The notes: generated by a model not told the origin, from the letters alone. A DNA stretch of 64,000 nt from Candidatus Rariloculaceae bacterium (GCA_965221035.1 OZ244860.1:992687-1056686); one strand, 5' to 3'; shown: positions 16,736-49,658, counted from the first letter of the stretch. Numbers and translations: made by a program.

Positions 16736-17028
16736 TCCGCGTCGAGCTCCCCTTCCATCTGAAAACGCTGGCCGGTGTCGACGGCGAAGTGGCGCTTACC
16801 GTGCGGGGCGAAGTCACGCGGGCCTCGATCCTGGATGCGCTGGAGGAGCGCTACCCGATGCTCCGGGGCACGATCCGCGACCACACTAGCGGCAGGCGGC
16901 GCCCGCTGGTCCGGTTTTTCGCGTGCCAGGTGGACGTCACCCACGACCCGCCGACCGCGCCGCTGCCGGCAACCGTGGCGACCGGCGCGGAGCCCTTTCT
17001 GATCGTCGGCGCGATCGCGGGAGGTTAG
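16732..17028 (+). CDS. MoaD/ThiS-family ubiquitin-like beta-grasp protein ending in Gly-Gly
   Basis: GTG 16732 overlaps the upstream TGA (GTGA). The 98-aa product [15 protein letters not shown]...[12 protein letters not shown] terminates with the GG tail used for C-terminal adenylation or thiocarboxylation. Confidence 0.7.
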
Positions 17029-17035
17029 TGCCCAG

Positions 17036-17917: not shown

Positions 17918-18130
17918 GGATTGTCCCTCCTCGATATGCATTTGATTCTTCGCTTGTACTGCGTGGCGCCAAATGGTGCCGGCCCGCGCCGTCTTCCCGG
18001 ATAATACAGCATGTACCGAAGCCGTTAGTGCTTGAACTGCATGACAATTGCGTAACAGGTTGTCACGACGCTGGGATCAGCCGACCCGACAACGCATAAT
18101 GGGAATTCTTGCAACGCAGGAAGCACACGC

Positions 18131-35457: not shown

Positions 35458-35610
35458 TGGTGCACGCCTCTCCCACAGACTGCCCACCTATATTTGCAAA
35501 TCGATCGGGTAAATTCAACATTTTTGTTAAAAGAAATAGCGTATTAGATACCAAACCTAGAGCACTGGGCAGAAAATGCCCGTAGGTGCATACGGCGGGC
35601 GATGCGCTTG

Positions 35611-36105
35611 TTACCCGGCGTCCGAATCGGCCAATATCGCAGTACCGGTCGGCGAGTTCGGCGTGACGGTGATTCGCCGGGTGGCGGTGCCGGTGATTTC
35701 GAATTCAACGAGAACATCGCACCGTGCGGCCAGCTTCGTCGATCGCCCCGGCCACTCCACCAGCAGCCATGCATCCGGACGGGAAAGCCAGTCGTTTACA
35801 CCGATGGCCTCGAGTTCGAGCGCCTGACGCCCGGAGGCATCATCCTCCGGCAACCGGTAGAGATCGATGTGGACCAACGTCACATCGCCCAGGTCGTAGT
35901 CTTCCAGAAGTGTGTACGTGGGCGAGGGAACGCGGCCGAGGTGGCCGAGCCCCTGCAGCATTCCGCGAACCCAGGTCGTCTTTCCGGCTCCGAGGGGGCC
36001 TTCGAGTCCCACCAGCAACCGGCACGGCGCGTGGCTGCGCCACTGGCGCGCAAGGCGCGACGCCATTCCCCTGAAGTGCGCCTCAGACTCCACCAAGGAG
36101 GCCAC
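35611..36105 (-). CDS. tsaE: tRNA threonylcarbamoyladenosine biosynthesis ATPase TsaE
   Basis: LVGLEGPLGAGKTTWVRG...VPSPTYTL...HIDLYRL motifs. No convincing ATG. Start tentatively GTG 36105. The upstream part of the track ORF overlaps the neighbouring gene. Confidence 0.8.
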   Translation of the reverse strand: MASLVESEAHFRGMASRLARQWRSHAPCRLLVGLEGPLGAGKTTWVRGMLQGLGHLGRVPSPTYTLLEDYDLGDVTLVHIDLYRLPEDDASGRQALELEAIGVNDWLSRPDAWLLVEWPGRSTKLAARCDVLVEFEITGTATRRITVTPNSPTGTAILADSDAG

Positions 36106-36140
36106 GGCAGACCCCCGCCCGTTGCCGCCGGTCAAAGGAG

Positions 36141-36971
36141 TCAGTCGATGGGGGAGAGAAGCTCCGGGGCGGTTACCAGCTGACGCACGCCGTGCGAACC
36201 CGACTCGTTGAACACGTTCCCCTGCTCGGCCCAGCGATGCAGCGAGTTGATGTCGAGCTTCGCGCACTGCGGCCGCACGCTCCAGGTGACCTGGGCTGCC
36301 GAACACGTGGTCTGGTCGTAAGACGGACCGGTGGTGGAGCCTCGAAACAGCACCGGCTCGCCGGTATTCGCCGGAATCATTCTGGCCTGATGCAGGCCGT
36401 CGATCTGGTTTCCGCCGTACGCCATCTCAGTGAAATCGAGTGCTTCCGGGTCATTGACGACGAGAAACACCTGCGCCTCGACACGCAGCAGGGGGTCGGC
36501 GCAGGCTTCCGGAACGCAGCCACCGAGTCCCTCCCCCGGCGTGGCGGGACAACTGGTATGAACCCAGTGCACTTCGATCGTTTCGCCGGGCTCCACTCCC
36601 TCGTACGCACCCTCCGCCGGAGCGAGTTCGGCGGCGCTGAGGTCGGACGTGGCGTTGCAGGCATATCCGCCGTCGTCGGCATCACTCACAAAGACGCTGA
36701 AGTCCGGACCCTTGTGTTCGGCGTTGGTATGGGTGTGAATGTTGCAAAGGTTCATTTCGCTGGCCGGAGGCGCCAACGGAAAGCTGACCGTGTTCAGACC
36801 TTCCCGCGCGGTGATGTCGCGTGGAGTCTGCGGTCCCATGTCCAGGCAAAGCGCCTCGCCGGCCTGCTCCGGAGCGGCGTTGGCGGCCAGGTCGGCTTCC
36901 GGTGCGCTTTCGCGTCCGCAACCGGTCATCGACAAAATGAACGCAATGCCCAATCCGCATGTAATTCTCAT
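36141..36971 (-). CDS. lipoprotein with His-rich H-x-H ... H-W-V-H motifs, possibly a carbonic-anhydrase-like (alpha/delta-type) metalloprotein
   Basis: Lipobox ILSMTGC. GPQTPRDI, CNIHTHTNAEHKG and IEVHWVHTSC resemble in spacing the alpha-CA QSPIDI / FHFHWG..SEH / ELHLVH zinc-site pattern. This rests on motif resemblance only. Confidence 0.4.
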   Translation of the reverse strand: MRITCGLGIAFILSMTGCGRESAPEADLAANAAPEQAGEALCLDMGPQTPRDITAREGLNTVSFPLAPPASEMNLCNIHTHTNAEHKGPDFSVFVSDADDGGYACNATSDLSAAELAPAEGAYEGVEPGETIEVHWVHTSCPATPGEGLGGCVPEACADPLLRVEAQVFLVVNDPEALDFTEMAYGGNQIDGLHQARMIPANTGEPVLFRGSTTGPSYDQTTCSAAQVTWSVRPQCAKLDINSLHRWAEQGNVFNESGSHGVRQLVTAPELLSPID

Positions 36972-37188
36972 CTGTATGTCTCCTGCTGCTGTATGGCACC
37001 TGCTGCGAGGTCCGGTCTCTTGCGCCCGCCGATCCCTCCATGATTTGCCGCGCGCGCCCAACTGGCCCGCTCCCGTCATGCTCGGTTCGCCCACTGTCCT
37101 GGTCGAACCGGAGCGACAGCCATTGGCGATGATACTATGAGAGAGGTGGTACGTCGTCAAAGCCCACCGCGTTTAATAACGGACTGAT

Positions 37189-38742
37189 ATGAGTAAGCAG
37201 AAGACACCATATCCTGTCGTCGATGTATTTGCGGGGCCGGGAGGGCTGGGTGAAGGTTTCGCATCACTTATCAGTGAAAAGGAAAATCCCCTGTTCCACA
37301 GCGTTGCCTCTATCGAGAGAGACGAACACTCACATAAGACGCTACTACTCCGGCATTTCTATCGTAGCTTCCCTAACGGTGAAGCCCCTGATGAGTATTA
37401 CAACTATCTTGCGGGGAAAATTGAAGCTGAAGAACTTTTCAGCAAATTCAAGAAACAATACAGTGAAGCCAGGAAGAGCGCCCTGTGTATTTCCTTGGGG
37501 CCGGAAAACCATGATCGTGTAAGGAGAATAATAGGAAGCCGTATTTCGGGGAAAAGGAAGTGGGCGTTGGTCGGAGGCCCGCCCTGCCAGGCATACTCCC
37601 TGGTTGGAAGGTCTCGGATGATGGGAAATCCCGATTTTGAAAGTGACGAGCGGCATTTCCTGTACCTTGAATACCTGAAGATCATTATTGATCATCAGCC
37701 GCCGGTTTTTGTCATGGAGAATGTGAAGGGGCTGCTTTCAGCCCAGGTCAAGGGCGAGCCGATAATAAACAGGATTGTTTCTGACCTTGGTAAGCTCAAA
37801 GTCGCCCTGGGAAAGAAAACAAATGGGCTCGGTTACAATCTCTATTCCCTGTCTGAAGAGAATGCGGTAGAAGGCGAGATTGACCCGCGTCAGTTCCTTG
37901 TCCGGGCTGAAAATTATGGTGTACCTCAAGCCCGACATCGGATGTTTATTGTTGGAATACGCAGTGACCTAAAGATTGAGCCAAGAACCCTCCGACCCCT
38001 GAAATCACCGACTGTCGCGCAGACTATCGGCAACCTTCCTTCCATACGTAGTGGTGTTTCTCGTGGTCGGGATAACCTGGAGCGATGGCACCAGGAAATT
38101 GCGGCGCTTGCTGACAGCAGCCTCATAAAACAACTTAATGGAGTCGAGTATGCCCGGGAGATAGTCTCCAGCATCAAGTGGCAGGCCCGGGATGAAATTC
38201 ATCCTGAAGTACGCTCTTCAAAAAGATATCCCGGTCGTCCGAAATCCAAGCATGACAGTCTGGTCAGCATCTACGATCCGCGACTGAACGTCCTGACAGG
38301 TCACGAGGCGAGAGCCCATATGCCTTCCGATTTACGGCGGTATATGTTCGCTGCAGTGTTTGCAGAGGAAACCGGAAGGAGTCCTAAGCTGGCAGATTTC
38401 CCGAAATTTTTGCTGCCTGATCATAGAAATGTAGAGAAAGGTCGATCAGGGGGAATGTTCTCAGACAGATTCAGAGTTCAGTTGCCGGGGCAGGTTTCAA
38501 CCACAGTTACTTCTCACATCTCGAAGGATGGTCACTATTTCATCCACTATGATCCATCGCAGTGTCGCAGCCTGACCGTGAGAGAGGCCGCGCGATTGCA
38601 GACCTTTCCGGATAACTACAAGTTCGAAGGGCCCCGCACCTCACAATACCATCAGATCGGCAACGCCGTTCCGGTGTACCTAGCCAGAAAAATTGCAGAG
38701 ATTATCGCCGATGTTCTGGATTCCATGAAGGGGAAATCCTGA
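37189..38742 (+). CDS. dcm: DNA (cytosine-5)-methyltransferase
   Basis: All m5C motifs are present: I DVFAGPGGLGEGF, IV GGPPCQAYS, VI VMENVKGL, VIII QARHRMFIVG, IX LTVREAARLQTFPD, X QIGNAVPV. A long variable (TRD) region lies between VIII and IX. Confidence 0.95.
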   Translation: MSKQKTPYPVVDVFAGPGGLGEGFASLISEKENPLFHSVASIERDEHSHKTLLLRHFYRSFPNGEAPDEYYNYLAGKIEAEELFSKFKKQYSEARKSALCISLGPENHDRVRRIIGSRISGKRKWALVGGPPCQAYSLVGRSRMMGNPDFESDERHFLYLEYLKIIIDHQPPVFVMENVKGLLSAQVKGEPIINRIVSDLGKLKVALGKKTNGLGYNLYSLSEENAVEGEIDPRQFLVRAENYGVPQARHRMFIVGIRSDLKIEPRTLRPLKSPTVAQTIGNLPSIRSGVSRGRDNLERWHQEIAALADSSLIKQLNGVEYAREIVSSIKWQARDEIHPEVRSSKRYPGRPKSKHDSLVSIYDPRLNVLTGHEARAHMPSDLRRYMFAAVFAEETGRSPKLADFPKFLLPDHRNVEKGRSGGMFSDRFRVQLPGQVSTTVTSHISKDGHYFIHYDPSQCRSLTVREAARLQTFPDNYKFEGPRTSQYHQIGNAVPVYLARKIAEIIADVLDSMKGKS

Positions 38743-39170
38743 TGGCGGATAGAATCTCGAAGGAGCATCGAAGCTGGAATATGTCGCGCATCAAGGGCAA
38801 AGACACCGGCCCTGAAAGGCAGTTGCGATCAATGCTGCATCGAGCGGGATACCGCTATCGGCTCCACCATTGGGAATTGCCAGGCCGTCCTGACATCGTG
38901 CTACCGAAATACCATGCAGCCGTTTTCGTTCACGGATGTTACTGGCATCGTCACAAGGGCTGCTCCAATGCGACAACGCCAAAAACACGGAAAGAATTCT
39001 GGCAGAAGAAATTCGGTGACACAGTGAGGAGAGATAAGCTTAAGGCGGACCAACTGGAGAAACTTGGATGGCACGTTATCACTGTCTGGGAATGTGAACT
39101 GAAGAAGAACCCCCAAGCGGTTCTTGAAAATGTCGCAGACCAGCTTAAGGATGTTTCTGATGCCTCGTGA
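38742..39170 (+). CDS. vsr: very short patch repair endonuclease Vsr
   Basis: SWNMSRIKGKDTGPE..LR..L...G.RYR.....LPGRPDIVL......VFVHGC.WH.H..C.....PKTR.EFW..K...N..RD is canonical Vsr. Its ATG shares 1 nt with the dcm stop. Confidence 0.95.
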   Translation: MADRISKEHRSWNMSRIKGKDTGPERQLRSMLHRAGYRYRLHHWELPGRPDIVLPKYHAAVFVHGCYWHRHKGCSNATTPKTRKEFWQKKFGDTVRRDKLKADQLEKLGWHVITVWECELKKNPQAVLENVADQLKDVSDAS

Positions 39171-40638
39171 ACAACGGCTTCCTCCAAGTGCAGCATCGCT
39201 GTCAGCTTCGATGCGTGACATTGGCTATTCTCTGGAAACCGCGATTGCGGATCTGATCGATAACAGTATTTCCGCCAAGGCCACAACGGTGGAAATCTAC
39301 TGCGATCTGACCCACTCCGAACCGACGCTGGCAATACTGGATAACGGCGAGGGGATGACACAGGACGGAGTGGTAGCAGCAATGCGTCACGGTGCAACCA
39401 ATCCCAAAGAAGAGAGAAGCCAGGATGATCTGGGGCGTTTTGGGCTGGGATTGAAAACAGCATCATTCTCACAGTGCAGAAGGCTGACCGTGGTGAGTAC
39501 TCAAGATGGCATCGTATCGGGGGCAGAGTGGGATCTGGACCTCGTTGACGAAAAAGACGACTGGATTGTGACGATCCCTGAAGAGGGTGAGATTTCAGAA
39601 ATCCCATTCATAGATCAACTCGGCGACAACGGAACTGTCGTCATATGGCGTTCTCTGGATCGCTTGTTCGAAGACGAAATCGGGAAAAAACGAGATGAAA
39701 TTGTGAACGAGAAACTGGATGTTGTTGAAAAACATCTGGCGCTCGTATTCCACAGATTTCTCTCTGGAGAGGTAAAACGCAGAAAGAAATTATCGATAAC
39801 AATCAATGGCCACAATGTTGAGCCTTTCGATCCGTTCTGCCGAAAAAATTCCGCTACTCAGATGATGCCAGAGGAGATTTTCCGTATCGGCGATGCAACA
39901 GTACGGATGCAGCCTTATATTCTCCCCCATCACAGTAAACTTTCGGCGTCAGAATATGATTTCTACCAAAGCCGCAGCGATTTTATTTCAAATCAAGGCG
40001 CCTATATCTATCGGAATGGCCGTCTTATGGCCTGGGGTGACTGGTTCCGATTGGTGTCCAAAGGGGAAGCCACAAAGCTTGCTCGTGTTCAGATCGACTT
40101 TCCAAGCAGTCATGATGACTTGTGGACAATTGATATCAAGAAATCCCGTGCAAGACCGCCGCACGCAGTCCGAGAGAGATTGCGCCAGGTAATCACGCGG
40201 ATCACCGGAAGGAGCACATCTGTCCACCGGGGGCGCGGGAAAAAGCTGTTTGAAGAGGTTGAAGCGCCGGTTTGGGAACGGTATGCGGATCCGGGCAGTA
40301 TCCGCTACGCTCTCAACGAAGAGCACCCTTTGATCGAAGCGCTTAATAATAATCTGGATGCTTCTGAACGCCGAAAGCTGGAGTTGCTGCTTCGGGCTGT
40401 GTCGACAGCCCTGCCGGTAGAAATGATCTACTCGGACTTCTCAACGCACCCCAGAGATGTGAAGCAGTCAGAGACCGACAAAGATGCGGTTATGGAAAAC
40501 CTCCGAGAACTGAGAGACAGCCTTTTCAAAGGTTCGGAAGGCGGTGCGGAAAGTTTCCGACAGGTGATGCGATCAACGAGATTGTTTGAGAAACATCTGG
40601 ATGTCGCGGAAGATTTTATACGTGAGGAGTTTGAATGA
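39160..40638 (+). CDS. GHKL (MutL/MORC-like, HATPase_c_3-type) ATPase
   Basis: Bergerat-fold motifs: N-box ETAIADLIDNSISA, G1 ILDNGEGMT, G2 LGRFGLGLKTASF. It overlaps the vsr stop by 11 nt (other in-frame ATGs at 39124 and 39151). Confidence 0.85.
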   Translation: MPREQRLPPSAASLSASMRDIGYSLETAIADLIDNSISAKATTVEIYCDLTHSEPTLAILDNGEGMTQDGVVAAMRHGATNPKEERSQDDLGRFGLGLKTASFSQCRRLTVVSTQDGIVSGAEWDLDLVDEKDDWIVTIPEEGEISEIPFIDQLGDNGTVVIWRSLDRLFEDEIGKKRDEIVNEKLDVVEKHLALVFHRFLSGEVKRRKKLSITINGHNVEPFDPFCRKNSATQMMPEEIFRIGDATVRMQPYILPHHSKLSASEYDFYQSRSDFISNQGAYIYRNGRLMAWGDWFRLVSKGEATKLARVQIDFPSSHDDLWTIDIKKSRARPPHAVRERLRQVITRITGRSTSVHRGRGKKLFEEVEAPVWERYADPGSIRYALNEEHPLIEALNNNLDASERRKLELLLRAVSTALPVEMIYSDFSTHPRDVKQSETDKDAVMENLRELRDSLFKGSEGGAESFRQVMRSTRLFEKHLDVAEDFIREEFE

Positions 40639-43283
40639 GCACCAACCACGTGGAAAACGAGAAGAACTTTGCAAGTGCACTGATCTCCGCTCTTTCAATC
40701 TACCAGGAAGCTCCGACACGAGCCGAGGTGGAAGAAAAGGCGGAAGGTCTGGCAAAAATATTCGGGTATGCCGGAAGCCTCGACACGATTATAGAAGAAG
40801 CGATGATTGCCGTTGATACAAGAATGGGGACTGGTGTTTCTCTTGTCGATGTGGAAGCGGAGCACGACGAAGAATGGGTGCGTAAGCGTGATGATATTTC
40901 CTGGACATACTCAGACGCTTACGAGGCATTTCTCAAACAGGAGCGGTGGCATCCGAACGTAGTACAGTCATTAAGCGACGTTGGCGCTCGAATTCTCGGA
41001 CATCTGCAAGACCCGTTGAGTGAAGGTGAATGGGATCGGAGAGGCCTTGTTATTGGTCATGTCCAGTCAGGCAAAACCGCCAATTATATGGGGCTAATCG
41101 CCAAGGCGGCAGATGCCGGTTATAAATTCATCATTGTGATCGCAGGTATTCACAATAATCTTCGAAAACAGACCCAGGAGCGCATTGATGAGGGGTTCGT
41201 TGGTCGTTTAAGCGATCCTGAAAACCGTGCGCCTGTAGGTGTGGGCCTGGCCAAAGGTTATCCTCATCCAGCGACGCTCACCAATATCTATGATGATTTC
41301 AACAAGAAGACCGCAGCTCAAAGTGGTTGGAAACTGAATGATTTCAGTAAGCCTATCATTCTGGTGATCAAGAAGAACGTAAGAACGCTAAATGCACTAC
41401 ATACTTGGCTGAGCGAAATGAATGTACAGGGTGGTAGAATTGCAGACGTACCCATGTTGATGATTGATGATGAGGCCGACAGTGCGTCAATCAACACCAA
41501 TAAAGAAGACCTGGACCCGACCAAAACAAACGCGATGATAAGAAAGGTTTTGGGCCTATTCATGAAGTCCTGTTATGTCGGCTACACAGCTACACCGTTT
41601 GCAAACATCTTCATCAATCCTGACTCATATGATGAAGATGTACGGGAGGAGTTGTTTCCTCGTGATTTCATCTATTGCCTGGATGCCCCCAATACGTACT
41701 TCGGTCCGGAAAAGGTTTTTCTGGACGACACTACAAGTGCCACGATCCTGGAGCCGATTGGAGATTGTGAAGAGTATCTGCCATTCACGCACAAAAAGGA
41801 TCATGATCTTTTTGAACTGCCGCCATCTCTATATCGGGCAATAAATCAGTTTGTTCTCGTCAGAGCTATTCGCAACCTTCGCGACCAAGCGAACAAGCAT
41901 TGCTCCATGATGGTCAATGTATCCCGCTTCGTGGACATTCAAATGGCTATAAGAAGTTTCGTAAGCGTCTATGAAAAGAGGCTGCGTGAGGCCGTAAAAG
42001 CCAACTATGCAATGCCAGACGATATTGCTGACAAAAACGAATATATGCGCGCCTTAAAGGACGTATATCTTGAAGACTTTTCCGGTTGTGGATTTCAGTG
42101 GCCTGAGATCAAAGCAGCGCTTTACGAAGCATGTGAAAGCGTTCGTTTGTTTGTTGTGAACAGCAAGTCAGACGAAGTGCTTGATTACAGGAAGTATGAG
42201 CGCGATGGTCAGAGTCTGACTGCCATAGCTATAGGTGGTTTGAGCTTGTCTCGTGGTCTGACAATAGAAGGCCTGAGTGTCAGCTACATGTATAGGAATA
42301 CACGCATGTACGACACTCTCATGCAGATGGGGCGCTGGTTTGGCTATAGGCCCGGTTTCGAGGACATCTGCAGGGTACACCTGTCTCTGGACTCCATAGA
42401 CTGGTATTCTCACATTGCAGAAGCATCAGAAGAATTAAGACAGCAGATAAAAAGGATGCGTCGAGACCGGTTGAGCCCAAAGCAGTTTGGGCTTTATGTG
42501 CGCGCACATCCTGATCGTCTGCTTATCACTGCGACAAACAAGATGCGTTCCGGTGAGAAAATCAAAGTAAAACAAAACTTTAGCGGGCGTTTGAGGGAAA
42601 GCTACATAATCCCCTCAAACAACAGAATAAATGAAGCAAACGAAGGTCTCATTGCGGAATTCTGGCGTGATGGATTTGGTGGAGCACTCAGGGAAACAGG
42701 TAAGGGGTGGATTGCCGATAACGTACCTGTTGAGGCTATTCAGAGTTTCCTGAACCGTTTTCAGACTCACCCTGATTTCGTAGAGCAAAAATATGCCGTT
42801 GTCGCTTATCTTCAGAAGATTGCCGATAAGTATCCCGAGGGGGATGTGTTGCTCATTTCAGTAAAAAAGAATGGTGAGGATGCATCAGGTTTTCGTTTGG
42901 GTTCTCAGGAACGCGCCAGTGCCAAACAGGTAGGTGATGCCTGGCGAACAAGTAAGGACCGCGTTGCAAGCCGGGGAGATGAGAAGCTCGGGCTTACAGA
43001 GGGGCAGAAATCAGAGGCTGAAGCAATCGCTCACGAATCCGGTGCTTATAAACCCTCGGATTTCCATTATCGTAGTGTCCGTAAAAAGCCTCTTCTTATG
43101 ATCCATATTCTCGGTCCGGTTGGCTCAAAGAAAGGAACAAATAGAATTCCAGCATTCGGTGTCAGCTTTCCGCCCGGTGACTACGAAACTGAAATTAAAG
43201 TGGTTGCAAACATCGTTTGGATAGAGCGGATGCTCGGCGCTTCTGTGGACAGCCCTGACGAAGAGGATGACTATGACGAATAG
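40635..43283 (+). CDS. Z1 domain-containing P-loop (SF2-like) NTPase
   Basis: ATGA overlap with the upstream gene. Walker A GHVQSGKTANYMG, Walker B MLMIDDEADSAS, TATP motif. The C-terminal segment GGLSLSRGLTIEGLSVSYMYRNTRMYDTLMQMGRWFGYRPGFEDICRV is typical of the Z1 domain. Confidence 0.85.
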   Translation: MSTNHVENEKNFASALISALSIYQEAPTRAEVEEKAEGLAKIFGYAGSLDTIIEEAMIAVDTRMGTGVSLVDVEAEHDEEWVRKRDDISWTYSDAYEAFLKQERWHPNVVQSLSDVGARILGHLQDPLSEGEWDRRGLVIGHVQSGKTANYMGLIAKAADAGYKFIIVIAGIHNNLRKQTQERIDEGFVGRLSDPENRAPVGVGLAKGYPHPATLTNIYDDFNKKTAAQSGWKLNDFSKPIILVIKKNVRTLNALHTWLSEMNVQGGRIADVPMLMIDDEADSASINTNKEDLDPTKTNAMIRKVLGLFMKSCYVGYTATPFANIFINPDSYDEDVREELFPRDFIYCLDAPNTYFGPEKVFLDDTTSATILEPIGDCEEYLPFTHKKDHDLFELPPSLYRAINQFVLVRAIRNLRDQANKHCSMMVNVSRFVDIQMAIRSFVSVYEKRLREAVKANYAMPDDIADKNEYMRALKDVYLEDFSGCGFQWPEIKAALYEACESVRLFVVNSKSDEVLDYRKYERDGQSLTAIAIGGLSLSRGLTIEGLSVSYMYRNTRMYDTLMQMGRWFGYRPGFEDICRVHLSLDSIDWYSHIAEASEELRQQIKRMRRDRLSPKQFGLYVRAHPDRLLITATNKMRSGEKIKVKQNFSGRLRESYIIPSNNRINEANEGLIAEFWRDGFGGALRETGKGWIADNVPVEAIQSFLNRFQTHPDFVEQKYAVVAYLQKIADKYPEGDVLLISVKKNGEDASGFRLGSQERASAKQVGDAWRTSKDRVASRGDEKLGLTEGQKSEAEAIAHESGAYKPSDFHYRSVRKKPLLMIHILGPVGSKKGTNRIPAFGVSFPPGDYETEIKVVANIVWIERMLGASVDSPDEEDDYDE

Positions 43284-44247
43284 ATCGACTCCTTGGGATG
43301 AGATTAAGTCTCCCAGCGCGGATTACAATGTCCGCCTGATCAAAAGCACAAAGGTCGTGCCCCTGTTCTGGGGAAAGGATACTGACGGACACTGTCTGTT
43401 CATTGTCGAACTCAAAGGCGATCACAGCGAGCTGTTTCAAAAGATCCGTGTCAGTATTCGGGGTGTGAAGGTTGATCTGAGACAGATGTCCTCATCAGAA
43501 AACCAGAGGCTTGTCCTGGCGCTGGAACAACACATTGATCGCGATCTGTTCTTTGGACTTTGCGAAACGCTTGCTGACAGCCTTCAGAAGGTTCCGGATT
43601 CAGCAACGGCGATGTCGGTTACTCTTGTACATCTACAGCGATGGAAGGCCTTTCTATCAGGAAGGAACGCCCGGCTCCTATCACCAGAGGAGATTCGCGG
43701 CCTTTTTGCAGAGCTGTATTTTTTGCGTGGCTTGTATAATGATCACCTGACTGAAGAAGCGGCATTATCCGCCTGGTGCGGCCCGGAAGGTGGACATCAG
43801 GACTTTTTCTTTGGAAATACGGCAGTTGAAATAAAGGCGCTCTCCGGGAAAGAGCGCAGCACGGTAAACATATCTTCGGAAGATCAGCTCGAAGCCGTTT
43901 GTGACAATCTGTTTTTAAAGGTTGTCCGGCTGGTCGATCTCCCCGAATCGTCAGGCTCGGCATCGCTCAATGAGGTTGTTCAACTCGTAGAACGTGAGCT
44001 TACTGATCCCGCTGCTCTTGAGCTGTTTGCCGAAAGACTGGCCGCGTACGGCTACGTGGAGATGCTTGATTATGATGAACCCAGGCTGGCAGTTACGGGT
44101 CAGCAGGCGTATCGGGTGGAAAACGAGTTTCCAAGGCTGATCCGTTCGCAGGTTCCACAGGGGCTGACCCGCATAAGTTATGAAATAGAACTTGAAATGA
44201 TCACGCCATTTAAATGTGATGAAGCGGACATCTGGAAGGAGGACTGA
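43267..44247 (+). CDS. PD-(D/E)XK motif protein (putative nuclease)
   Basis: 326 aa, overlapping the Z1 gene by 17 nt. Candidate catalytic core GGHQD-x9-EIK (HQDFFFGNTAVEIKAL). Confidence 0.7.
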   Translation: MTMTNRSTPWDEIKSPSADYNVRLIKSTKVVPLFWGKDTDGHCLFIVELKGDHSELFQKIRVSIRGVKVDLRQMSSSENQRLVLALEQHIDRDLFFGLCETLADSLQKVPDSATAMSVTLVHLQRWKAFLSGRNARLLSPEEIRGLFAELYFLRGLYNDHLTEEAALSAWCGPEGGHQDFFFGNTAVEIKALSGKERSTVNISSEDQLEAVCDNLFLKVVRLVDLPESSGSASLNEVVQLVERELTDPAALELFAERLAAYGYVEMLDYDEPRLAVTGQQAYRVENEFPRLIRSQVPQGLTRISYEIELEMITPFKCDEADIWKED

Positions 44248-46314
44248 GTGGAGCTCACTGCAGAGGAATTTTTCCACGATTTCAGACAGGAATTAATGGC
44301 TGGGGCAGAAGCGAACAGCGCTTTTCAGCTCGCCGAGTTCATGGAAGCCATTTCAGATGAACTGACCGAAACTGGTTTTATCGAGGGGTTCGAGTTCTGT
44401 CACTATCGAGCGCAACGAGGTATGCGCGTTGATGGTTATTGGTTCTCGGAAGAAGACACCCTTGACCTGTTTGTGGCTGATTTTGAAAGCAGAGATGAAC
44501 TCTCATCCCTGACGCAGACTGATACAACCTCTACTTTTAAGCGCCTGACGAGCTTCTTTGATGCGAGCCGTAACAAAGAACTTTTCCGGGAGCTTGAGGA
44601 AACCTCACCGGAGTACGGGCTTGCCCGTCAGATTTCCGACCGGAAAAATCTGATACGCCGCGTGAACTACTACCTTGTCTCCGAACGCATACTTAGCGAC
44701 CGACTTCAGACGATCGAAGATAATGAAATCGGCGGTTCGCCCGCAACTTATCACATCTGGGATATTTCAAGGCTCCAACGGCAAAGAAGTTCTCGCGGTC
44801 GCAAGGAGGCTCTTGATCTCAACCTTGTTGAGATGTTCGGAGAAGGAATTCCCTGTCTTCGTGCACACCTTGGTTCAGACGCATACCCCTCGTATCTGGT
44901 GGTAATGCCAGGGCAAGTGCTTTCCGAACTGTACGGAAAATATGGGGCGCGGCTGCTAGAGCAGAATGTACGATCATTTCTTCAGGCGCGCGGAAAGGTG
45001 AACAAGGGCATTCGGACCACTATTCTGACCGAGCCAAATATGTTTTTTCCCTTTAACAACGGGATCACAGCTACGGCTCAGGAGATAGAAGTAGAGCCTA
45101 CGCAGGAAGGATTGCAGATAAACCGCATCAGGGATTTGCAGATCGTTAACGGTGGACAAACAACGGCATCACTCTTTCATACTGCACGTCGGGATAAGGC
45201 TCCAATGGACGGTATTTTTGTGCAGATGAAGTTGTCAGTCGTTGACAGCGAGGATAGCGAGACCATCGTTCCGCGTATATCAGAATACGCGAACACACAG
45301 AACAGGGTTAATGCAGCGGACTTCTACTCGAATCATCCATTCCATATCAGGATAGAGAAATTCTCCAGGCGTATATGGGCACCGGCACAACAGGGTGCAC
45401 AGCGAGAGACAAAGTGGTTCTACGAGCGCGCGCGCGGGCAATATGCAGATTCGCAATCCAAGCTTACGCAGGCCGAGACACGAAGATTCAGGGCGGAATA
45501 TCCAAAACCGCAGATGTTTACGAAGACGGATTTGGCAAAATTCGAAAATGTCTGGGATGAGCACCCGAGATGGGTAAACCTGGGTGCACAGAAGAACTTT
45601 GCACGATACGCAGCCAGGATCGGTAAGGAGTGGGTCAAATCAACGGAGAGTTTCAATGAGTTCTATTATCGAAGAGCAATTGCGCGGGCAATTGTATTTC
45701 GAAGAACCGAGAAACTGGTGTCAGACCAGCCCTGGTACAACGGGGGCTACCGAGCGAACATAGTCGCGTATACCATAGCGGTGTTAAGCGAATGCTCTAG
45801 ACAGCGTAAGAAGTCTATCGACTACAGCAGAATCTGGAGCAATCAAAAACTGCCGGAGTCTCTTGTTGACGCCCTAGCGATAGCCGCAAGGTTCGTGAAC
45901 GGCGATATCGCGAATCCCCCTTTAGGAATATCCAACATATCTGAGTGGTGTAAGAAAGAAGGTTGTTGGCAGAGGATTCTGAATAATATATCTCAGTTGG
46001 AAGATGATTTGCCGGAAAGGTTCTGGAAGGAGCTTGTTTCTATAGAAGAAGAAATGGAAAGGGCAAAAGCAGCCAAGAAGACGCAAAAAATTGATGACGG
46101 CATTGAAGCGCAGAAACAGATTTTTGAAGTGGACTCTAAGATCTGGGCCAAAATTTTGACCGAGGGCAATGAGAAACAACTTTTTTCGGCTAAAGACGTT
46201 GGAATCCTGAATATTGCAAAGAGTATTCCATCGAAAATACCTACCGAGAAACAGAGCTTCATACTGCTTGAAATTCTTGAGAAGGCAAGGTCAGAAGGGA
46301 TTCAGGTTGACTGA
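44248..46314 (+). CDS. AIPR (abortive-infection phage resistance-type) family protein
   Basis: The GTG start abuts the upstream TGA. 688 aa. The N-terminal FF.DFRQE.....E......LAEFME..SDEL.E.G and the central IVNGGQTT motif match what I recall of AIPR proteins. Confidence 0.7.
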   Translation: MELTAEEFFHDFRQELMAGAEANSAFQLAEFMEAISDELTETGFIEGFEFCHYRAQRGMRVDGYWFSEEDTLDLFVADFESRDELSSLTQTDTTSTFKRLTSFFDASRNKELFRELEETSPEYGLARQISDRKNLIRRVNYYLVSERILSDRLQTIEDNEIGGSPATYHIWDISRLQRQRSSRGRKEALDLNLVEMFGEGIPCLRAHLGSDAYPSYLVVMPGQVLSELYGKYGARLLEQNVRSFLQARGKVNKGIRTTILTEPNMFFPFNNGITATAQEIEVEPTQEGLQINRIRDLQIVNGGQTTASLFHTARRDKAPMDGIFVQMKLSVVDSEDSETIVPRISEYANTQNRVNAADFYSNHPFHIRIEKFSRRIWAPAQQGAQRETKWFYERARGQYADSQSKLTQAETRRFRAEYPKPQMFTKTDLAKFENVWDEHPRWVNLGAQKNFARYAARIGKEWVKSTESFNEFYYRRAIARAIVFRRTEKLVSDQPWYNGGYRANIVAYTIAVLSECSRQRKKSIDYSRIWSNQKLPESLVDALAIAARFVNGDIANPPLGISNISEWCKKEGCWQRILNNISQLEDDLPERFWKELVSIEEEMERAKAAKKTQKIDDGIEAQKQIFEVDSKIWAKILTEGNEKQLFSAKDVGILNIAKSIPSKIPTEKQSFILLEILEKARSEGIQVD

Positions 46315-46333
46315 AGAAATATGAAGTTTTGAG

Positions 46334-47215
46334 ATGCTGTATAAATTCGCGCCACCCAATGAATATACGTTGAAAAATCTGAAAGAACGAAAATTTATAT
46401 GCCGACATTTTTCTGAGTTTAATGATCCATTTGAATTCTGGGGAAATCTGAAGAGAAAAATCCCATCTGCTGAAAATGAAGAAGCGCGATTTAAAGATGC
46501 TCTTAAAACATGGGGGTTCACACCTGAGAGCCTTAATGACTTGAATTTGGAACACGAGGAGTATTTTGAATCTCTGGCGGATGGCGCACCTGATTTCGGC
46601 GCGATGTATGACTATACACGTATTGCCTGTTTTGGATCTGACATAGGTAATCTGTTGATGTGGTCTCACTACGCTGATGGCCTTCGAGGTTTGTGTCTGG
46701 AACTGGACTTTGACCTGGATGTGATAGGCGGGCTCAACAAGAGCCGCGTTTATATGACATCAGTTCGATACACCAACACACCTCCTGTTGTCGATGCGTT
46801 CAATTTTGCTGTGGCGGAGGATCAGATTGATTATCACGTAATGGCGATTGAAGAGGCAAAACAACTCGGAGATACGCGATGGGTGGACCAGTACAAGGAA
46901 GTATTGGAGGAGGAGTCCCGGAAGATACGAGACTCCATCTGGGATGATGCTTTCGCCACAAAACCTGTGGAGTGGGAATATGAGCAGGAAAAGAGACTGC
47001 TAGTTTACATGGACAGTGACAACGGCAAACCAGAATTTATGGAGTACCCGAAAGGGGCTCTAAAAAGAATCGTCCTTGGTGAGAAGATGCCTGAAGAGTT
47101 CAGAGAAGCTGTTATGGAGCTTGTAAAAAAATATTGTTCTGATGTTCCTGTCTGGGTTGCAACCAGATCATCAAAATGCTTCCAGATCAAGCTAGAACAG
47201 TTTGATCCTCAGTAA
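46334..47215 (+). CDS. DUF2971 domain-containing protein
   Basis: 293 aa. LYKF....EYTL.NL......C.HFSEFNDPFE and LMWSHYADGLRGLCLE are the hallmark DUF2971 segments. It lies 19 nt after the AIPR stop. Confidence 0.7.
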   Translation: MLYKFAPPNEYTLKNLKERKFICRHFSEFNDPFEFWGNLKRKIPSAENEEARFKDALKTWGFTPESLNDLNLEHEEYFESLADGAPDFGAMYDYTRIACFGSDIGNLLMWSHYADGLRGLCLELDFDLDVIGGLNKSRVYMTSVRYTNTPPVVDAFNFAVAEDQIDYHVMAIEEAKQLGDTRWVDQYKEVLEEESRKIRDSIWDDAFATKPVEWEYEQEKRLLVYMDSDNGKPEFMEYPKGALKRIVLGEKMPEEFREAVMELVKKYCSDVPVWVATRSSKCFQIKLEQFDPQ

Positions 47216-47318
47216 TTTCATATCTTACCCCTCGGCACATTTTCGCTACAAGGAGGAACCCGCCGCGCTTATTTACTTATGAAGTATCATGCTGGTGAGC
47301 AACTCTAGGTTGCTTGCG

Positions 47319-47713
47319 TGAGGTGGTCCCACATCTTTGTACAGTCCGTTAAGGTGTACTCCAATGTCGACAGGAGGCACTGGGATGGCGAAGAAGAGGC
47401 GTCGTTTCACTGCGCGTTTCAAGAAGCGGGTGGCGTTGGAGGCGTTGCGTGAACGTGAGAAGATTCAGGAGATTGCGGCGCGTCACCAAGTGCAACCGAG
47501 CCAGGTGACCGCTTGGAAGCGCAAGGGGCTGGAGGACGTGTTCTCTGGCTCGGGATCGAAGCGCGCGGCGGACCATGAGGCGACGATCCGGGAGCTTCAC
47601 GCGAAGATTGGCGAGTTGACGGTGGAGCGGGATTTTTTCTTCGCGGGTTGGAGCACTGAGGCGTTCGCAGCGGGCGGCGATGATCGAGCGCACCGGTCCG
47701 TTGTCGTTGTCGC
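47319..47713 (+). mobile_element. IS3-family element fragment (left end only), truncated by IS21 insertion
   Basis: Candidate left inverted repeat (IRL) TGAGGTGGTCCCAC at 47319, followed by the orfA-type transposase gene. The element stops abruptly at the IS21 terminus (47714). Confidence 0.6.
47385..47713 (+). pseudogene. IS3-family transposase OrfA remnant (frameshifted and truncated)
   Basis: AGGAGG Shine-Dalgarno. MAKKRRRFTARFKKRVALEALRE..IQEIAARHQV.PSQV..WKR.....F...........E..I.ELHAKIGELTVERDF is a typical IS3 OrfA. After the T-run at 47633..47638 the homologous reading (SRVGALRRSQRAAMIERTGPLSLSLS) continues in another frame. No OrfB is present. Confidence 0.75.
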
Positions 47714-47719
47714 TGTCAA

Positions 47720-47763
47720 TGCTGAAGTAATTTTCCCCAGTAGTGCTGAAGTAAATTTCCCCA
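47720..47763. repeat. IS21 subterminal direct repeats (tgctgaagtaattttcccca / tgctgaagtaaatttcccca)
   Basis: 47720..47739 and 47744..47763 differ at one position. Multiple subterminal repeats are a known property of IS21-family ends. Confidence 0.8.
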
Positions 47764-47778
47764 TCTTTTCTTATTTGG

Positions 47779-48624
47779 TTATTTTATTTCGATGTTTTTT
47801 CGAGGCCGGCCACGGCGTCGTTTGGGCTTGGTCATGGCCGAGACGGGGGGCAGCCGCAGGCTGTCGGGAACGAGCTTGGCGTGTTCTCTGAGCCGGTAGC
47901 TGTTGCCGGCGATTTCGATCACGATGGCATGGTGCAGCAGCCGGTCCAGGAGCGCGGCGGCCACCACGGTGTCGCCGAACACCTCGCCCCACTCGCTGAA
48001 GCCGCGGTTGGAGGTCAGGATGACGGCGCCGCGCTCGTAGCGGGCGTTGACGAGTTGGAAGAACAGGTTCGCGCCGCCTTTTTGCACGGGCAGATACCCG
48101 ACTTCGTCGATGATGAGTAGCGCCGGGCGGGTGATGAAGGCGATGCGCTGGGTGAGTTTGCCTTCGCGTTCGGCCTTGGTGAGGGTATCGATGATTTCTG
48201 CCAAGGTGGCGAAGTACACGATTTTGCCGGCCTTGACGGCTTCCACGCCCAGGGCGACGGCCAGATGGCTCTTGCCGGTGCCGGGCGGACCCAGCAGATG
48301 GATGACCTCGCCGCGCTCGATGAAGCTCAGTTCGGCCAGGGCCAGGATGCGGTTCTTGTCCAGCGAGGGCTGGAAGCTGAAGTCGAAGCCTTCCAGCGTC
48401 TTGATGCGGGTCAGCCGGGCGGTCATCAGGCAGGACTTGATGCGGCGGGTCTCGCGCGTGGCCCGTTCCTCGCCGAGCAGCTCGTCGAGGAACTCCAGCG
48501 CCGAGAGTTGACCGTCCTCGACCCGGCGCACGCAGTCGTCGAGCACTTCCAGGGCCCGGCTCATCTTCATGCCCACCAGGTGCGCGCGCAGGCGCTCCAG
48601 CGGTGTCTGCGGCAGCGCGTTCAT
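47779..48624 (-). CDS. istB: IS21-family helper ATPase IstB
   Basis: 281 aa. Walker A LLGPPGTGKSHLAVALG, Walker B LLIIDEVGY, IstB-type N-terminus. Confidence 0.9.
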   Translation of the reverse strand: MNALPQTPLERLRAHLVGMKMSRALEVLDDCVRRVEDGQLSALEFLDELLGEERATRETRRIKSCLMTARLTRIKTLEGFDFSFQPSLDKNRILALAELSFIERGEVIHLLGPPGTGKSHLAVALGVEAVKAGKIVYFATLAEIIDTLTKAEREGKLTQRIAFITRPALLIIDEVGYLPVQKGGANLFFQLVNARYERGAVILTSNRGFSEWGEVFGDTVVAAALLDRLLHHAIVIEIAGNSYRLREHAKLVPDSLRLPPVSAMTKPKRRRGRPRKNIEIK

Positions 48625-48717
48625 GAGCGTGCGCCGCCGGCCAGGGCGTGGCCGATGTGCTCGTAGACGCTCAGATCCCGGCGCCGCACGGTGTGCCCGG
48701 GAGGCATCAGCACGACT

Positions 48718-49614
48718 TCATCCGCCTGCCGGGGGGGCACCGGAGCCCGGCGGCGGCCAGCGCCGGTGACCGGGTGCCAGTCGGCGCAGGCCGCGACCGT
48801 GCAGCAACGGGTGCACCGCCACCAGGCGGCGGCCTTCGTAGATGCGCACTTCATCGGCCAGGGTGTGCACCTCCACCACCCGCCGACGGGTGCGGTCCGG
48901 CACACTGTAGAGGTTGCCGTTGACGCTGACCATGCCGTCGTGGCTGACCCGGCGCTGCAGGCTCAACACCGCCTTGAACGGCGTGACGGGCAACGGCAGA
49001 AGCTGCGGCCGCTCCTCGGCAAAGGCCTCGCCGACGACCCGCCGCGTGGTGCCGTGGCAACGCACGTTGGCCACACCAGCCCGCCACTCGGCGAACTGCG
49101 CGTTCAGATCCTCAAGGTTGGCGAAACAACCGCCGAGGAAGAAGTCGTCGCGGATGTAACTGAACGGGCGTTCCACCTTGCCCTTGGTCTTGGCCCGGTA
49201 CGGGGCGCAGGCACGGGGACGGAACCCGTAGTGTTCGGCCAACTCCAGCAGTCGCGGATGGTAGACCACGTGGCGGGCCTCGTCCTCGCCCAGCACCGCG
49301 GTCTTCATCCGGTCGTAGAGGATCTGCCGGGGCACCCCGCCGAGCTCCTCGAATGCCCGCATGTGGCAGCGCAGCACACTGGCCAGGTGCTGCCCGAACA
49401 CGAACTGACCGGTCAGCAAACGGCAGTATCCGAGCACGAGGGAGAACAACCACACCACGCGGATCCGGCCCGGCTGCTCGGTGAAGTCGGTCTTGAACTG
49501 CGCAAAATCCACCTGCGCCTGTTCGCCCGGAGCGGTCTCGAAGCGGTGCTCGAAGCCCCGCTCCGGAGCTGGACGGACTTCCCGCAGGTACGCCGTCAGT
49601 TGCGAGTAACAGCC
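48718..49614 (-). pseudogene. istA: IS21-family transposase IstA, N-terminally truncated
   Basis: Recognisable from about GCYSQLTAYLREVRP...RFETAPGEQAQVDFAQF (start of the DDE integrase core) to the C-terminus. The first roughly 90 codons of the track ORF (to 49884) only read through the 3' end of nnr in another frame. Confidence 0.8.
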
Positions 49615-49658
49615 CGGACATCGAGCACAGCAAGGCGCGGCGTGCGGTGCCCCGCCGT

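What the first reader, a model, noticed from the sequence alone, without database searches (positions are those of the whole stretch)
36106..49658. About 13.5 kb of foreign DNA splits the conserved nnr|tsaE junction
The backbone order queG / nnr - tsaE - amiB - mutL - miaA - hfq - hflXKC - purA matches E. coli, where nnr (yjeF) and tsaE (yjeE) are adjacent and co-oriented. Here they are separated by a carbonic-anhydrase-like lipoprotein gene, a seven-gene operon on the opposite strand, and two IS remnants. From about 37.19 to 47.3 kb the base composition drops visibly (A/T-ending codons, A/T runs) relative to the strongly GC-rich flanks, which indicates horizontal acquisition. The insertion also detaches tsaE-amiB-mutL from any promoter upstream of nnr.
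Basis: partly seen in the sequence, partly recalled or inferred. Interest (0 to 1): 0.6.

Follow-up and report, generated by a model that had tools for sequence, protein, structure and literature searches.

The report
Defence island in nnr–tsaE hotspot
About 12.4 kb of foreign, low-GC DNA carrying a methylase-linked anti-phage gene cassette and two broken insertion sequences sits between two housekeeping genes, at a spot where sister species carry nothing, a different defence island or an IS: a well-documented but ordinary defence island.

Summary
Between nnr (49659-51158, -) and tsaE (~35611-36126, -) lie a delta-carbonic-anhydrase-like lipoprotein gene, seven tightly packed + strand genes, and nested IS3 and IS21 remnants. 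The segment 37165-47318 has 48.6% GC. It is the lowest 10-kb window of the 3.82-Mb genome (mean 62.8%, z = -5.1).

The seven genes are Dcm, Vsr, distant homologues of MzaB/C/D/E (GHKL ATPase, Z1 NTPase, DUF4420 PD-(D/E)XK, AIPR), and a DUF2971 gene. The six-gene cassette recurs as a unit across many phyla. It matches the putative "type II" system of Miller et al. 2022.

Three corrections apply.
- The CA-like gene is not part of the recent insertion. It has backbone codon usage, and five sister species carry nnr–CA-like–tsaE with no island. The real insertion is about 12.4 kb (37161/88-49614).
- A promoter-like site (TTGACG-17-TAGTAT, 37160→37132) precedes the CA-like gene. Its hexamers are invariant in eight genomes of the genus, and the site survives here. 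tsaE-amiB were therefore probably not orphaned by the island.
- The site has been hit repeatedly. One species holds an Hma/methylase/ATPase island at the same place. Another has an IS-like insertion there.

No integrase, tRNA, att site or target duplication was found. Verdict: new member of a known kind, modest interest.

The parts
35611..36126 (-). tsaE (backbone); exact start codon not fixed
   Evidence: Pfam TsaE 5.7e-26. 67-83% aa identity to relatives' tsaE. GC3 0.77.
36141..36971 (-). Delta-carbonic-anhydrase-like lipoprotein gene. It is native to the subclade and not part of the recent island.
   Evidence: Pfam CA_like 1.1e-63. Start ATG 36971 followed by a lipobox (LSMTGC). Orthologues of 72-83% identity lie between nnr and tsaE in G011, G012, G013, G015 and G016. 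GC3 0.75.
37132..37160 (-). Conserved sigma-70-like promoter of the CA-like-tsaE(-amiB) unit: TTGACG, 17 nt, TAGTAT
   Evidence: It is the only promoter-like site found in 35400-37400. Both hexamers are invariant and the spacer variable in G000, G001, G006, G011, G012, G013, G015 and G016.
37161..37188 (.). Junction zone on the CA-like side. Island DNA begins somewhere in these 28 bp, at most 28 bp upstream of the dcm ATG.
   Evidence: Alignment with empty-site relatives. No + strand promoter-like site upstream of dcm.
37189..38742 (+). C5 cytosine DNA methyltransferase (Dcm-type), 517 aa, catalytic motifs intact
   Evidence: Pfam DNA_methylase 1.4e-47 and TIGR00675. Motifs FAGPGG, PPCQ, ENV and GNAVP are present.
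38742..39170 (+). Vsr very-short-patch-repair endonuclease; overlaps the dcm stop by 1 nt
   Evidence: Pfam Vsr 8.6e-28; TIGR00632 137.9 bits against a cut-off of 97.85.
39124..40638 (+). GHKL (MutL/MORC-like) ATPase, distant MzaB homologue
   Evidence: HATPase_c_3 2.2e-34. PADLOC MzaB 2.4e-83. NCBIfam MzaB 327.6 bits, below the 850 cut-off.
40635..43283 (+). Z1-domain P-loop NTPase, distant MzaC homologue
   Evidence: Z1 9.1e-74. PADLOC MzaC 4.6e-127. NCBIfam MzaC 497 bits against a 1500 cut-off. Walker A GHVQSGKT and an IDDEAD motif.
43267..44247 (+). DUF4420 PD-(D/E)XK protein, distant MzaD homologue
   Evidence: DUF4420 1.7e-62. NCBIfam MzaD 129 bits against a 420 cut-off.
44248..46314 (+). 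AIPR (abortive-infection) family protein, distant MzaE homologue
   Evidence: AIPR 4.7e-103 and AIPR_N 1.6e-45. NCBIfam MzaE 366.5 bits against a 1050 cut-off.
46334..47215 (+). DUF2971 protein (PADLOC candidate PDC-S31). It is an extra cargo gene, not part of the conserved cassette.
   Evidence: DUF2971 4.6e-06; PDC-S31 1.4e-36. No homologue in the 80 other cassette loci at 1e-8. Lowest GC of the island, 0.44.
47319..47713 (+). IS3-family left end with a 5' orfA fragment (ATG 47385), cut off by the IS21 insertion
   Evidence: HTH_Tnp_1 4.1e-10 and a transpos_IS3 N-terminal match only. Sequence read. No full copy in the genome.
47714..49614 (-). IS21-family remnant. It keeps the terminal TGTCAATG... 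end with two 20-bp subterminal repeats, an intact istB (47779-48624) and an istA lacking its first 82 codons. The other terminus is missing.
   Evidence: IstB_IS21 7.2e-79; transpos_IS21 profile positions 84-293 only. Repeats D2. A 407-aa ISBcen28-like IstA aligns at residues 83-366 to 49614->48760. The first 77 residues of the long ORF are nnr's 3' end read in another frame.
49615..49658 (.). Backbone spacer retained downstream of the nnr stop codon
   Evidence: Aligns with the nnr-proximal spacer of G012 and G016.
49659..51158 (-). nnr (bifunctional NAD(P)H-hydrate repair enzyme), intact
   Evidence: YjeF_N and Carb_kinase domains, full length. 72-81% identity to genus relatives.

Best explanation
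This is a horizontally acquired defence island of about 12.4 kb (37161/88-49614). It lies in the short spacer between the nnr stop codon and the promoter of a lineage-specific CA-like-tsaE-amiB unit.

Cargo. The main cargo is an intact, translationally coupled operon on the strand opposite to the backbone. It encodes Dcm, Vsr, a GHKL ATPase, a Z1 NTPase, a DUF4420 PD-(D/E)XK nuclease and an AIPR protein. This is a methyltransferase-linked relative of the MzaBCDE anti-phage system. A separate DUF2971 candidate defence gene follows it.

Inferred mode of action. Dcm marks the host's own DNA with 5-methylcytosine. Vsr repairs the T:G mismatches that 5mC deamination causes. The ATPase, NTPase, nuclease and AIPR proteins attack or abort on unmarked invading DNA.

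Inferred history. Beyond the cassette, an IS3-family element was hit by an IS21 element. A later deletion removed the IS21 left end and everything up to 44 bp from the nnr stop.

The site. It is a permissive, repeatedly used landing site. Once the CA-like gene had arrived earlier in the subclade with its own promoter, the spacer upstream of that promoter could take insertions without polar effects on tsaE-amiB-mutL.

What is shown: foreignness, gene content, boundaries, empty sites, alternative occupants, and conservation of the promoter hexamers. What is inferred: the mode of defence, the order of IS events, how the DNA entered, and actual transcription.
For: Composition: lowest-GC 10-kb window of the genome, z = -5.1, and GC3 0.45-0.56 against 0.75-0.80.

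Empty sites: G011, G012, G013, G015 and G016 have nnr-spacer-CA-like-tsaE. Twenty-two more distant genomes have nnr abutting tsaE.

Relatives' Z1 genes are at most 42-44% identical and lie at other loci.

The cassette dcm-vsr-mzaB-C-D-E is kept as a unit in loci from Pseudomonadota, Desulfobacterota, Bacteroidota, Chloroflexota, Planctomycetota and others. The best DNA match is 85% over 4.2 kb.

Catalytic motifs are intact and the ORFs are full length relative to homologues.

Hotspot: G001 carries HmaA, a C5-MTase, HmaB, two AAA_21 ATPases and HmaC between nnr and the same promoter, also antisense to the backbone. In G006 the assembly breaks in this spacer at IS-like inverted ends.

Promoter. 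IS anatomy.

Literature: Miller et al. 2022 (PMC9523054) describe the Z1 + PD-(D/E)XK + C5-MTase (+AIPR, MORC-like) putative system and its likeness to mzaABCDE of Gao et al. 2020. Johnson et al. 2023 (PMC10250203) describe core-gene-flanked, low-GC defence hotspots with IS3-family transposases at their borders.
Against: No integrase, tRNA, att site or target-site duplication marks the island. The entry mechanism is therefore unknown.

The hotspot claim rests on only three occupied genomes of one genus. One of these is inferred from contig ends.

The Mza-like proteins score far below NCBIfam equivalog cut-offs and MzaA is missing. This cassette type has not been tested experimentally in any paper I found. 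Anti-phage activity is therefore an inference.

No sigma-70-like promoter is predicted upstream of dcm, and at most 28 bp of island DNA precede its ATG. The operon could be poorly expressed.

No same-species genome was available to date the insertion.
Confidence: 0.85

Rival explanations
1. The block is the remnant of a site-specific integrative element (integrase/att type). Its recombinase end was deleted with the IS21 left end, and the spacer upstream of the CA-like promoter is a specific attachment site.
For: Two different islands (G000 and G001) end within about 15-30 bp of the same -35 hexamer and have the same antisense orientation. The nnr-proximal end has clearly suffered a deletion.
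Against: No integrase, excisionase or direct repeat is present in G000. The 11-bp near-repeat lies inside istA coding sequence and does not exceed chance. The two islands share no sequence outside the backbone. The Pfam and PADLOC scans of the nine large ORFs of the G001 island returned no integrase family.
Confidence: 0.1
2. The island was delivered by IS-mediated (composite or one-ended) transposition of an IS3- or IS21-bounded segment.
For: IS3 and IS21 remnants sit at one border. Transposases at hotspot borders are common (PMC10250203).
Against: Only one border carries IS DNA, and neither IS has both ends. There is no IS end next to dcm; the 10-bp inverted match CAGTCCGTTA is at the 95th percentile of the null. 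No target duplication was found. The IS DNA has 65% GC against 49% for the cargo, so the two have different histories.
Confidence: 0.1
3. The low-GC genes are old residents of the lineage with unusual composition, lost from the relatives.
For: None beyond the lack of recognisable mobility scars on the dcm side.
Against: It would need independent precise losses in at least five sister species that keep an intact 75-380 bp spacer. The GC3 gap of 25-30 points is not ameliorated. The nearest relatives of the cassette are in other phyla.
Confidence: 0.02
4. Assembly chimera: a foreign contig was joined into the chromosome.
For: The composition changes abruptly.
Against: The genome is a single 3.82-Mb contig, 98.7% complete. 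Both flanks continue the same intergenic spacer seen in relatives, with little or no loss. GC-rich IS remnants bridge the cargo and the backbone.
Confidence: 0.02

Closest known systems
Core-gene-flanked defence hotspots (cDHS1/cDHS2 of Pseudomonas aeruginosa; Johnson et al. 2023, PMC10250203)
   Same: The chromosomal site is fixed between conserved core genes. It is empty or holds different defence cargo in different genomes. GC is lower than the genome's. IS3-family transposases sit at the borders, and no single mobile-element type or integrase is involved.
   Different: The flanking genes differ (nnr and a CA-like/tsaE unit). I found no paper linking nnr or tsaE to a hotspot. Only three occupied genomes are known, compared across species of one genus and not across strains of one species.
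Putative 'type II' Z1 / PD-(D/E)XK / cytosine-methyltransferase system of Miller, Stern & Burstein 2022 (PMC9523054)
   Same: The core is the same: a ~900-aa Z1 protein, a PD-(D/E)XK DUF protein and a C5 methyltransferase, plus AIPR and a MORC/GHKL-type ATPase. The taxonomic spread is also very wide.
   Different: The associated transcriptional regulator mentioned there is absent here. Vsr is part of the unit here. That system is a prediction without experimental test.
MzaABCDE anti-phage system (Gao et al. 2020, as cited in PMC9523054; NCBIfam NF041932-35; PADLOC MzaB-E)
   Same: Same four-protein architecture and gene order: GHKL ATPase, Z1, PD-(D/E)XK, AIPR. All four are best hits in both libraries.
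   Different: Scores are 30-40% of the equivalog cut-offs. MzaA is absent, and Dcm plus Vsr stand upstream in its place.
E. coli dcm-vsr pair (my own knowledge of that locus)
   Same: A C5 methyltransferase gene overlaps a downstream vsr gene, which limits 5mC-to-T mutation.
   Different: Here the pair heads a six-gene defence-type operon. The Dcm protein is only distantly related to E. coli Dcm (NF007772 56 bits against a 710 cut-off).

Membership tests
Genomic (defence) island | Absent from the same site in related genomes | tested here: met
   Five sister species have nnr-CA-like-tsaE without it, and 22 further genomes have nnr-tsaE adjacent.
Genomic (defence) island | Composition and codon usage deviate from the host genome | tested here: met
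   48.6% against 62.8% GC, z = -5.1, the lowest window of the genome. GC3 0.45-0.56 against 0.75-0.80.
Genomic (defence) island | Mobility genes or their remnants are present | tested here: met
   IS3 orfA fragment and an IS21 remnant (istB plus truncated istA) at one border.
Genomic (defence) island | Integration scars: tRNA target, att or direct repeats, integrase | tested here: not met
   No tRNA or Rfam hit. No integrase among the ORFs. Candidate repeats do not exceed chance. These scars are typical of islands but not obligatory.
Core defence hotspot | Same core-gene flanks hold different defence cargo in different genomes | tested here: met
   G000 holds the Dcm-Vsr-Mza-like cassette plus DUF2971. 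G001 holds HmaABC, a C5-MTase and two AAA_21 ATPases at the same spacer. G006 has an IS-like insertion. The sample is small.
MzaABCDE system | All five components, including MzaA | tested here: not met
   No MzaA match among the seven proteins. Dcm and Vsr occupy the upstream positions.
MzaABCDE system | MzaB-E reach the NCBIfam equivalog cut-offs | tested here: not met
   Scores against cut-offs: 327.6/850, 497.2/1500, 129.2/420, 366.5/1050. They are homologous but not equivalogs.
Miller et al. 2022 type II putative system | Z1 protein + PD-(D/E)XK DUF protein + cytosine methyltransferase core, with AIPR and a MORC-like ATPase | tested here: met
   All five domains lie in one operon. The description was read. 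The paper writes DUF4220; the Pfam hit here is DUF4420.
Anti-phage defence system (functional) | Protects against phage or foreign DNA when expressed | not testable with these tools
   Needs cloning and a phage challenge. No experimental paper on this cassette type was found.
C5 DNA methyltransferase | Catalytic motifs I (FxGxG), IV (PCQ), VI (ENV) and X (GNAVP) | tested here: met
   FAGPGG at residue 14, PPCQ at 131, ENV at 177, and GNAVP near the C-terminus. Pfam 1.4e-47.

The most novel reading that the evidence does not exclude
The roughly 30 bp just upstream of the CA-like promoter's -35 hexamer may be a specific, integrase-independent docking point. Defence cargo would be inserted there promoterless and always antisense to the backbone, so that its expression is taken from the shared divergent promoter region. 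Here at most 28 bp of island DNA precede the dcm ATG, and no promoter-like site is predicted for the operon. That would be a new way of targeting and wiring defence islands, as opposed to a merely permissive gap filled by recombination.
Probability: 0.08. Interest if true: 0.55.

Novelty: new member of a known kind. Interest (0 to 1): 0.3.

Why it matters
The locus is a clean, well-bounded example of how a conserved housekeeping gene string (nnr-tsaE-amiB-mutL-miaA-hfq) becomes able to take insertions. An earlier gene arrival, with its own promoter, opened a spacer that has since been occupied by defence cargo or an IS in three species of the genus.

It also supplies an intact, compact copy of the Dcm-Vsr-GHKL-Z1-PD-(D/E)XK-AIPR cassette. 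That cassette is very widespread across bacteria but has no published mechanism, so this copy could serve as a test article.

Neither point changes current concepts. Defence islands in core-gene-flanked hotspots, and this cassette type, have both been described.

Tried and rejected
1. An 11-bp near-repeat (TGACGGCGTAC at 49598-49588 and TGACGACGTAC at about 37159-37149) looked like a target duplication. The nnr-side copy lies inside istA coding sequence (…YSQLTAYLREV…). A 10/11 match scores below the 95th percentile of random window pairs. Rejected.

2. A 10-bp inverted match, CAGTCCGTTA, occurs next to dcm and inside the IS3 left end. It suggested an IS3-bounded transposon, but it is at the 95th percentile of the null. 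Rejected.

4. Exact-protein look-ups for strain-level relatives with or without the island returned nothing on record.

5. A near-identity search of the island against plasmids gave no match. Z1 relatives on plasmids and viral contigs are at most 47% identical.

6. Full copies of the two IS elements in the genome itself were sought, and only short diverged fragments were found.

7. Literature linking nnr, yjeF or tsaE to defence hotspots: none found. Experimental work on this cassette type: none found.

8. A Vibrio MAG locus (L075) has the cassette about 1.5 kb from a split nnr gene. A GMP-reductase gene lies between them and the far side is off the contig. I treat this as coincidence.

9. The organism's name was not recovered. 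Genomes are shown unnamed.
Full report
**What is there**

The window is G000:C1:992687-1056686 of a single-contig 3.82-Mb genome. On the - strand the backbone reads nnr (49659-51158), then tsaE (about 35611-36126), amiB (34129-35487), mutL and miaA.

Between the nnr stop and tsaE lie, in + strand coordinates:
- A 276-aa lipoprotein gene of the delta-carbonic-anhydrase-like family (36141-36971, - strand). Pfam CA_like scores 1.1e-63, and the true start is the ATG at 36971, followed by a lipobox.
- Seven + strand ORFs from 37189 to 47215 that overlap or abut.
- An IS3-family left end with the first about 110 codons of orfA (47319-47713).
- An IS21-family fragment (47714-49614). It has the terminal TGTCAATG… end, two 20-bp subterminal repeats, an intact istB and a truncated istA.

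A 407-aa ISBcen28-like IstA aligns only from residue 83, to 49614→48760. The HTH region and the other terminus are therefore gone. The first 77 residues of the long "istA" ORF are nnr's 3' end read in another frame. No tRNA and no Rfam family is present in 34-52 kb.

**Is the composition signal real?**

Yes. GC is 0.46-0.52 from 37.0 to 47.3 kb and about 0.65 on both sides. The segment 37165-47318 has 48.6% GC. Among all 10-kb windows of the genome (mean 62.8%, sd 2.8%) it is the minimum, with z = -5.1.

GC3 is 0.45-0.56 for the seven genes. It is 0.75-0.80 for miaA, mutL, amiB, tsaE, the CA-like gene and nnr. The IS remnants are GC-rich (65%; GC3 0.85 for istA and istB), so they have a different history from the cargo.

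**What the seven genes are**

- A Dcm-type C5 methyltransferase, with motifs FAGPGG, PPCQ, ENV and GNAVP present.
- Vsr, whose gene overlaps the dcm stop by 1 nt.
- A GHKL (MutL/MORC-like) ATPase.
- A Z1-domain NTPase with Walker A GHVQSGKT and an IDDEAD motif.
- A DUF4420 PD-(D/E)XK protein.
- An AIPR protein.
- A DUF2971 protein.

PADLOC and NCBIfam both name proteins 3-6 as MzaB, MzaC, MzaD and MzaE. The NCBIfam scores are only 30-40% of the equivalog cut-offs, and no MzaA is present. The DUF2971 protein matches the PADLOC candidate PDC-S31.

Miller et al. 2022 (PMC9523054) described this architecture as a putative "type II" defence system reminiscent of mzaABCDE of Gao et al. 2020: a Z1 protein, a PD-(D/E)XK DUF protein and a cytosine methyltransferase, plus AIPR and a MORC-type ATPase. 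I found no experimental paper on it.

**The cassette elsewhere**

A scan of one genome per species returned 552 relatives of the Z1 protein. In the 80 best loci, dcm, vsr and mzaB-C-D-E are nearly always together and in the same order. The hosts include Alpha-, Beta- and Gammaproteobacteria, Desulfobacterota, Rhodothermales, Chloroflexota, Planctomycetota, Armatimonadota and Nitrospira.

The DUF2971 gene has no homologue in any of these loci, so it is a separate piece of cargo.

The nearest copy is a 5.6-kb contig labelled as a Desulfocapsa MAG. It is 85% identical in DNA over 4.2 kb (window 38470-42636). The identity stops inside dcm, whose first about 430 codons are only about 44% identical in protein. 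The methyltransferase has therefore been exchanged independently of the rest.

No plasmid carries near-identical DNA. Z1 relatives on plasmids and viral contigs are at most 47% identical.

**Empty sites and true boundaries**

The nnr locus was recovered from 29 relatives.
- Twenty-two of them, from the more distant members of the genus out to other families of the order, have tsaE abutting or overlapping nnr, followed by amiB.
- Five of the closest species (G011, G012, G013, G015, G016; nnr 76-81% identical) have nnr, a 75-380 bp spacer, the CA-like gene (72-83% identical), and then tsaE.

The CA-like gene therefore belongs to the subclade's backbone. It may itself be an old arrival. Of 52 metagenomic homologues (50-83% identical) with at least 1.5 kb of upstream sequence, only one lies next to nnr and tsaE.

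Relatives' Z1 genes are at most 42-44% identical and lie elsewhere in their genomes.

Alignment of the spacers places the junctions as follows:
- Backbone sequence runs for 44 bp after the nnr stop (49658-49615), and IstA homology starts at 49614.
- On the other side, backbone homology is clear from the -35 hexamer at 37160 and probably extends a further 10-25 bp.
- The island therefore begins at most 28 bp upstream of the dcm ATG (37189).

The insertion is thus about 12.4 kb. The reconstructed spacer, about 65-75 bp from the stop to the -35, matches G012 and G016 (73-75 bp). Little or no backbone was lost, although a few bp cannot be excluded.

**Promoter**

The only sigma-70-like site in 35400-37400 is TTGACG-17 nt-TAGTAT at 37160→37132 on the - strand. 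The same two hexamers, with a variable 17-nt spacer, are present upstream of the CA-like gene in G001, G006, G011, G012, G013, G015 and G016. This pattern fits selection on a working promoter.

tsaE-amiB-mutL therefore had an nnr-independent promoter before the island arrived, and they keep it. It is probably without consequence.

Conversely, no promoter-like site is predicted upstream of dcm. How the island operon is transcribed is open.

**A recurrent site**

In G001 the 16.7 kb between nnr and the same promoter hold a different set of genes, again antisense to the backbone:
- HmaA (SNF2 helicase with an HTH and a NOV_C domain);
- a C5 methyltransferase;
- HmaB (DUF1156 methylase);
- two AAA_21 ATPases (HEC-01 and PDC-M07 types);
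- HmaC.

The conserved promoter is retained right at that island's edge. The CA-like gene there is a pseudogene with an internal deletion. The two islands share nothing except backbone.

In G006 both contigs end inside this spacer. The two ends carry inverted copies of ATGGACGCCTCCC between the promoter and the CA-like ATG, as expected for a multicopy IS.

Three of the eight CA-like-bearing genomes of the genus (G000 included) thus have something inserted here. This matches the "core defence hotspot" pattern of Johnson et al. 2023: fixed core flanks, low GC, varied defence cargo, IS3-family transposases at the borders, and no single mobile-element type. Those authors proposed exchange by homologous recombination of the flanks (PMC10250203). 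I found no paper naming nnr or tsaE as hotspot flanks.

**How it most likely works**

Shown:
- The DNA is foreign and intact.
- It carries defence-type genes.
- It lies in a spacer that tolerates insertions.

Inferred, from what is established about these families:
- Dcm marks the host's DNA with 5-methylcytosine.
- Vsr repairs the T:G mismatches caused by 5mC deamination.
- The GHKL ATPase, Z1 NTPase, PD-(D/E)XK nuclease and AIPR protein act on DNA that lacks the mark, or trigger abortive infection.

The independent exchange of the methyltransferase in the nearest relative argues against sequence recognition being hard-wired in the MzaB- or MzaC-like proteins.

Order of events (inferred):
1. 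The CA-like gene and its promoter arrived in the subclade ancestor.
2. The low-GC cargo arrived with, or was followed by, an IS3-family element.
3. An IS21 element inserted into the IS3 orfA.
4. A deletion ran from istA codon 83 to 44 bp from the nnr stop.

How the cargo entered is unknown. There is no integrase, att site or target duplication. Two candidate repeats were tested and do not exceed chance.

**Verdict**

This is a new member of known kinds: a defence island in a core-gene-flanked hotspot, carrying a described but untested cassette type. Earlier first-stage notes of this scan on the same window had already named the module, the Dcm-Vsr pair, the DUF2971 gene, the lipoprotein and the nested IS elements. 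I re-derived each of these here.

Noticed in passing
L130 (G001:C1:4490000-4508300), 1400-18180: A sister species carries a different island of about 16.7 kb at the same nnr|CA-like spacer: HmaA, a C5 methyltransferase, HmaB (DUF1156), two AAA_21 ATPases (HEC-01 and PDC-M07 types), HmaC and small unknown ORFs. All are antisense to the backbone. The CA-like gene there is a pseudogene with an internal deletion.
   Followed up: partly
L002 1-205 and L213 2365-2427 (G006 contigs C22 and C321): Both contigs end inside the nnr|CA-like spacer. The ends carry inverted copies of ATGGACGCCTCCC between the conserved promoter and the CA-like ATG. This looks like a multicopy IS inserted in the leader.
   Followed up: partly
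L052 versus window 37189-42636: The nearest cassette copy (85% DNA identity from 38470 onward; Vsr 86%, MzaB 91%, MzaC 95% in protein) has a Dcm only 44% identical over its first ~430 codons. Among the 80 loci there are two Dcm classes (about 60-69% and about 44% identity) paired with equally similar MzaB-E. The methyltransferase is therefore swapped independently of the effector genes, which constrains how self and non-self could be read.
   Followed up: partly
window 37161-37188 and + strand upstream of 37189: At most 28 bp of island DNA precede the dcm ATG, and no sigma-70-like site is predicted for the operon. Its promoter must lie in backbone DNA that overlaps the divergent CA-like promoter, be non-canonical, or be missing.
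   Followed up: partly
window 36141-36971; loci L131-L210: Homologues of the delta-CA-like lipoprotein (50-83% identical) are common in marine and sediment metagenomes. Only 1 of 52 informative contigs has it next to nnr and tsaE, so the gene itself is probably an older insertion at this junction.
   Followed up: partly
window 46334-47215: The DUF2971/PDC-S31 gene is absent from all 80 other cassette loci and has the lowest GC of the island (0.44). It is a separate hitch-hiking gene, not a seventh component of the system.
   Followed up: partly
L075 3548-8081 (Vibrio sp. MAG contig): The same cassette lies about 1.5 kb from an nnr gene split into two ORFs, with a GMP-reductase gene between them. 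The far side of the cassette runs off the contig. Probably coincidence.
   Followed up: partly
window 48718-48905: The 3' end of the IS21 istA does not align with the last about 40 residues of a reference IstA. A second ORF (48621-48905) overlaps it after a run of C, which suggests a frameshift in addition to the 5' truncation.
   Followed up: no
window 32323-34107 versus 38742-40638: The island brings a Vsr and a MutL-like GHKL ATPase to within 5 kb of the housekeeping mutL. By my own knowledge, Vsr repair in E. coli is stimulated by MutL. The proximity is probably accidental.
   Followed up: no
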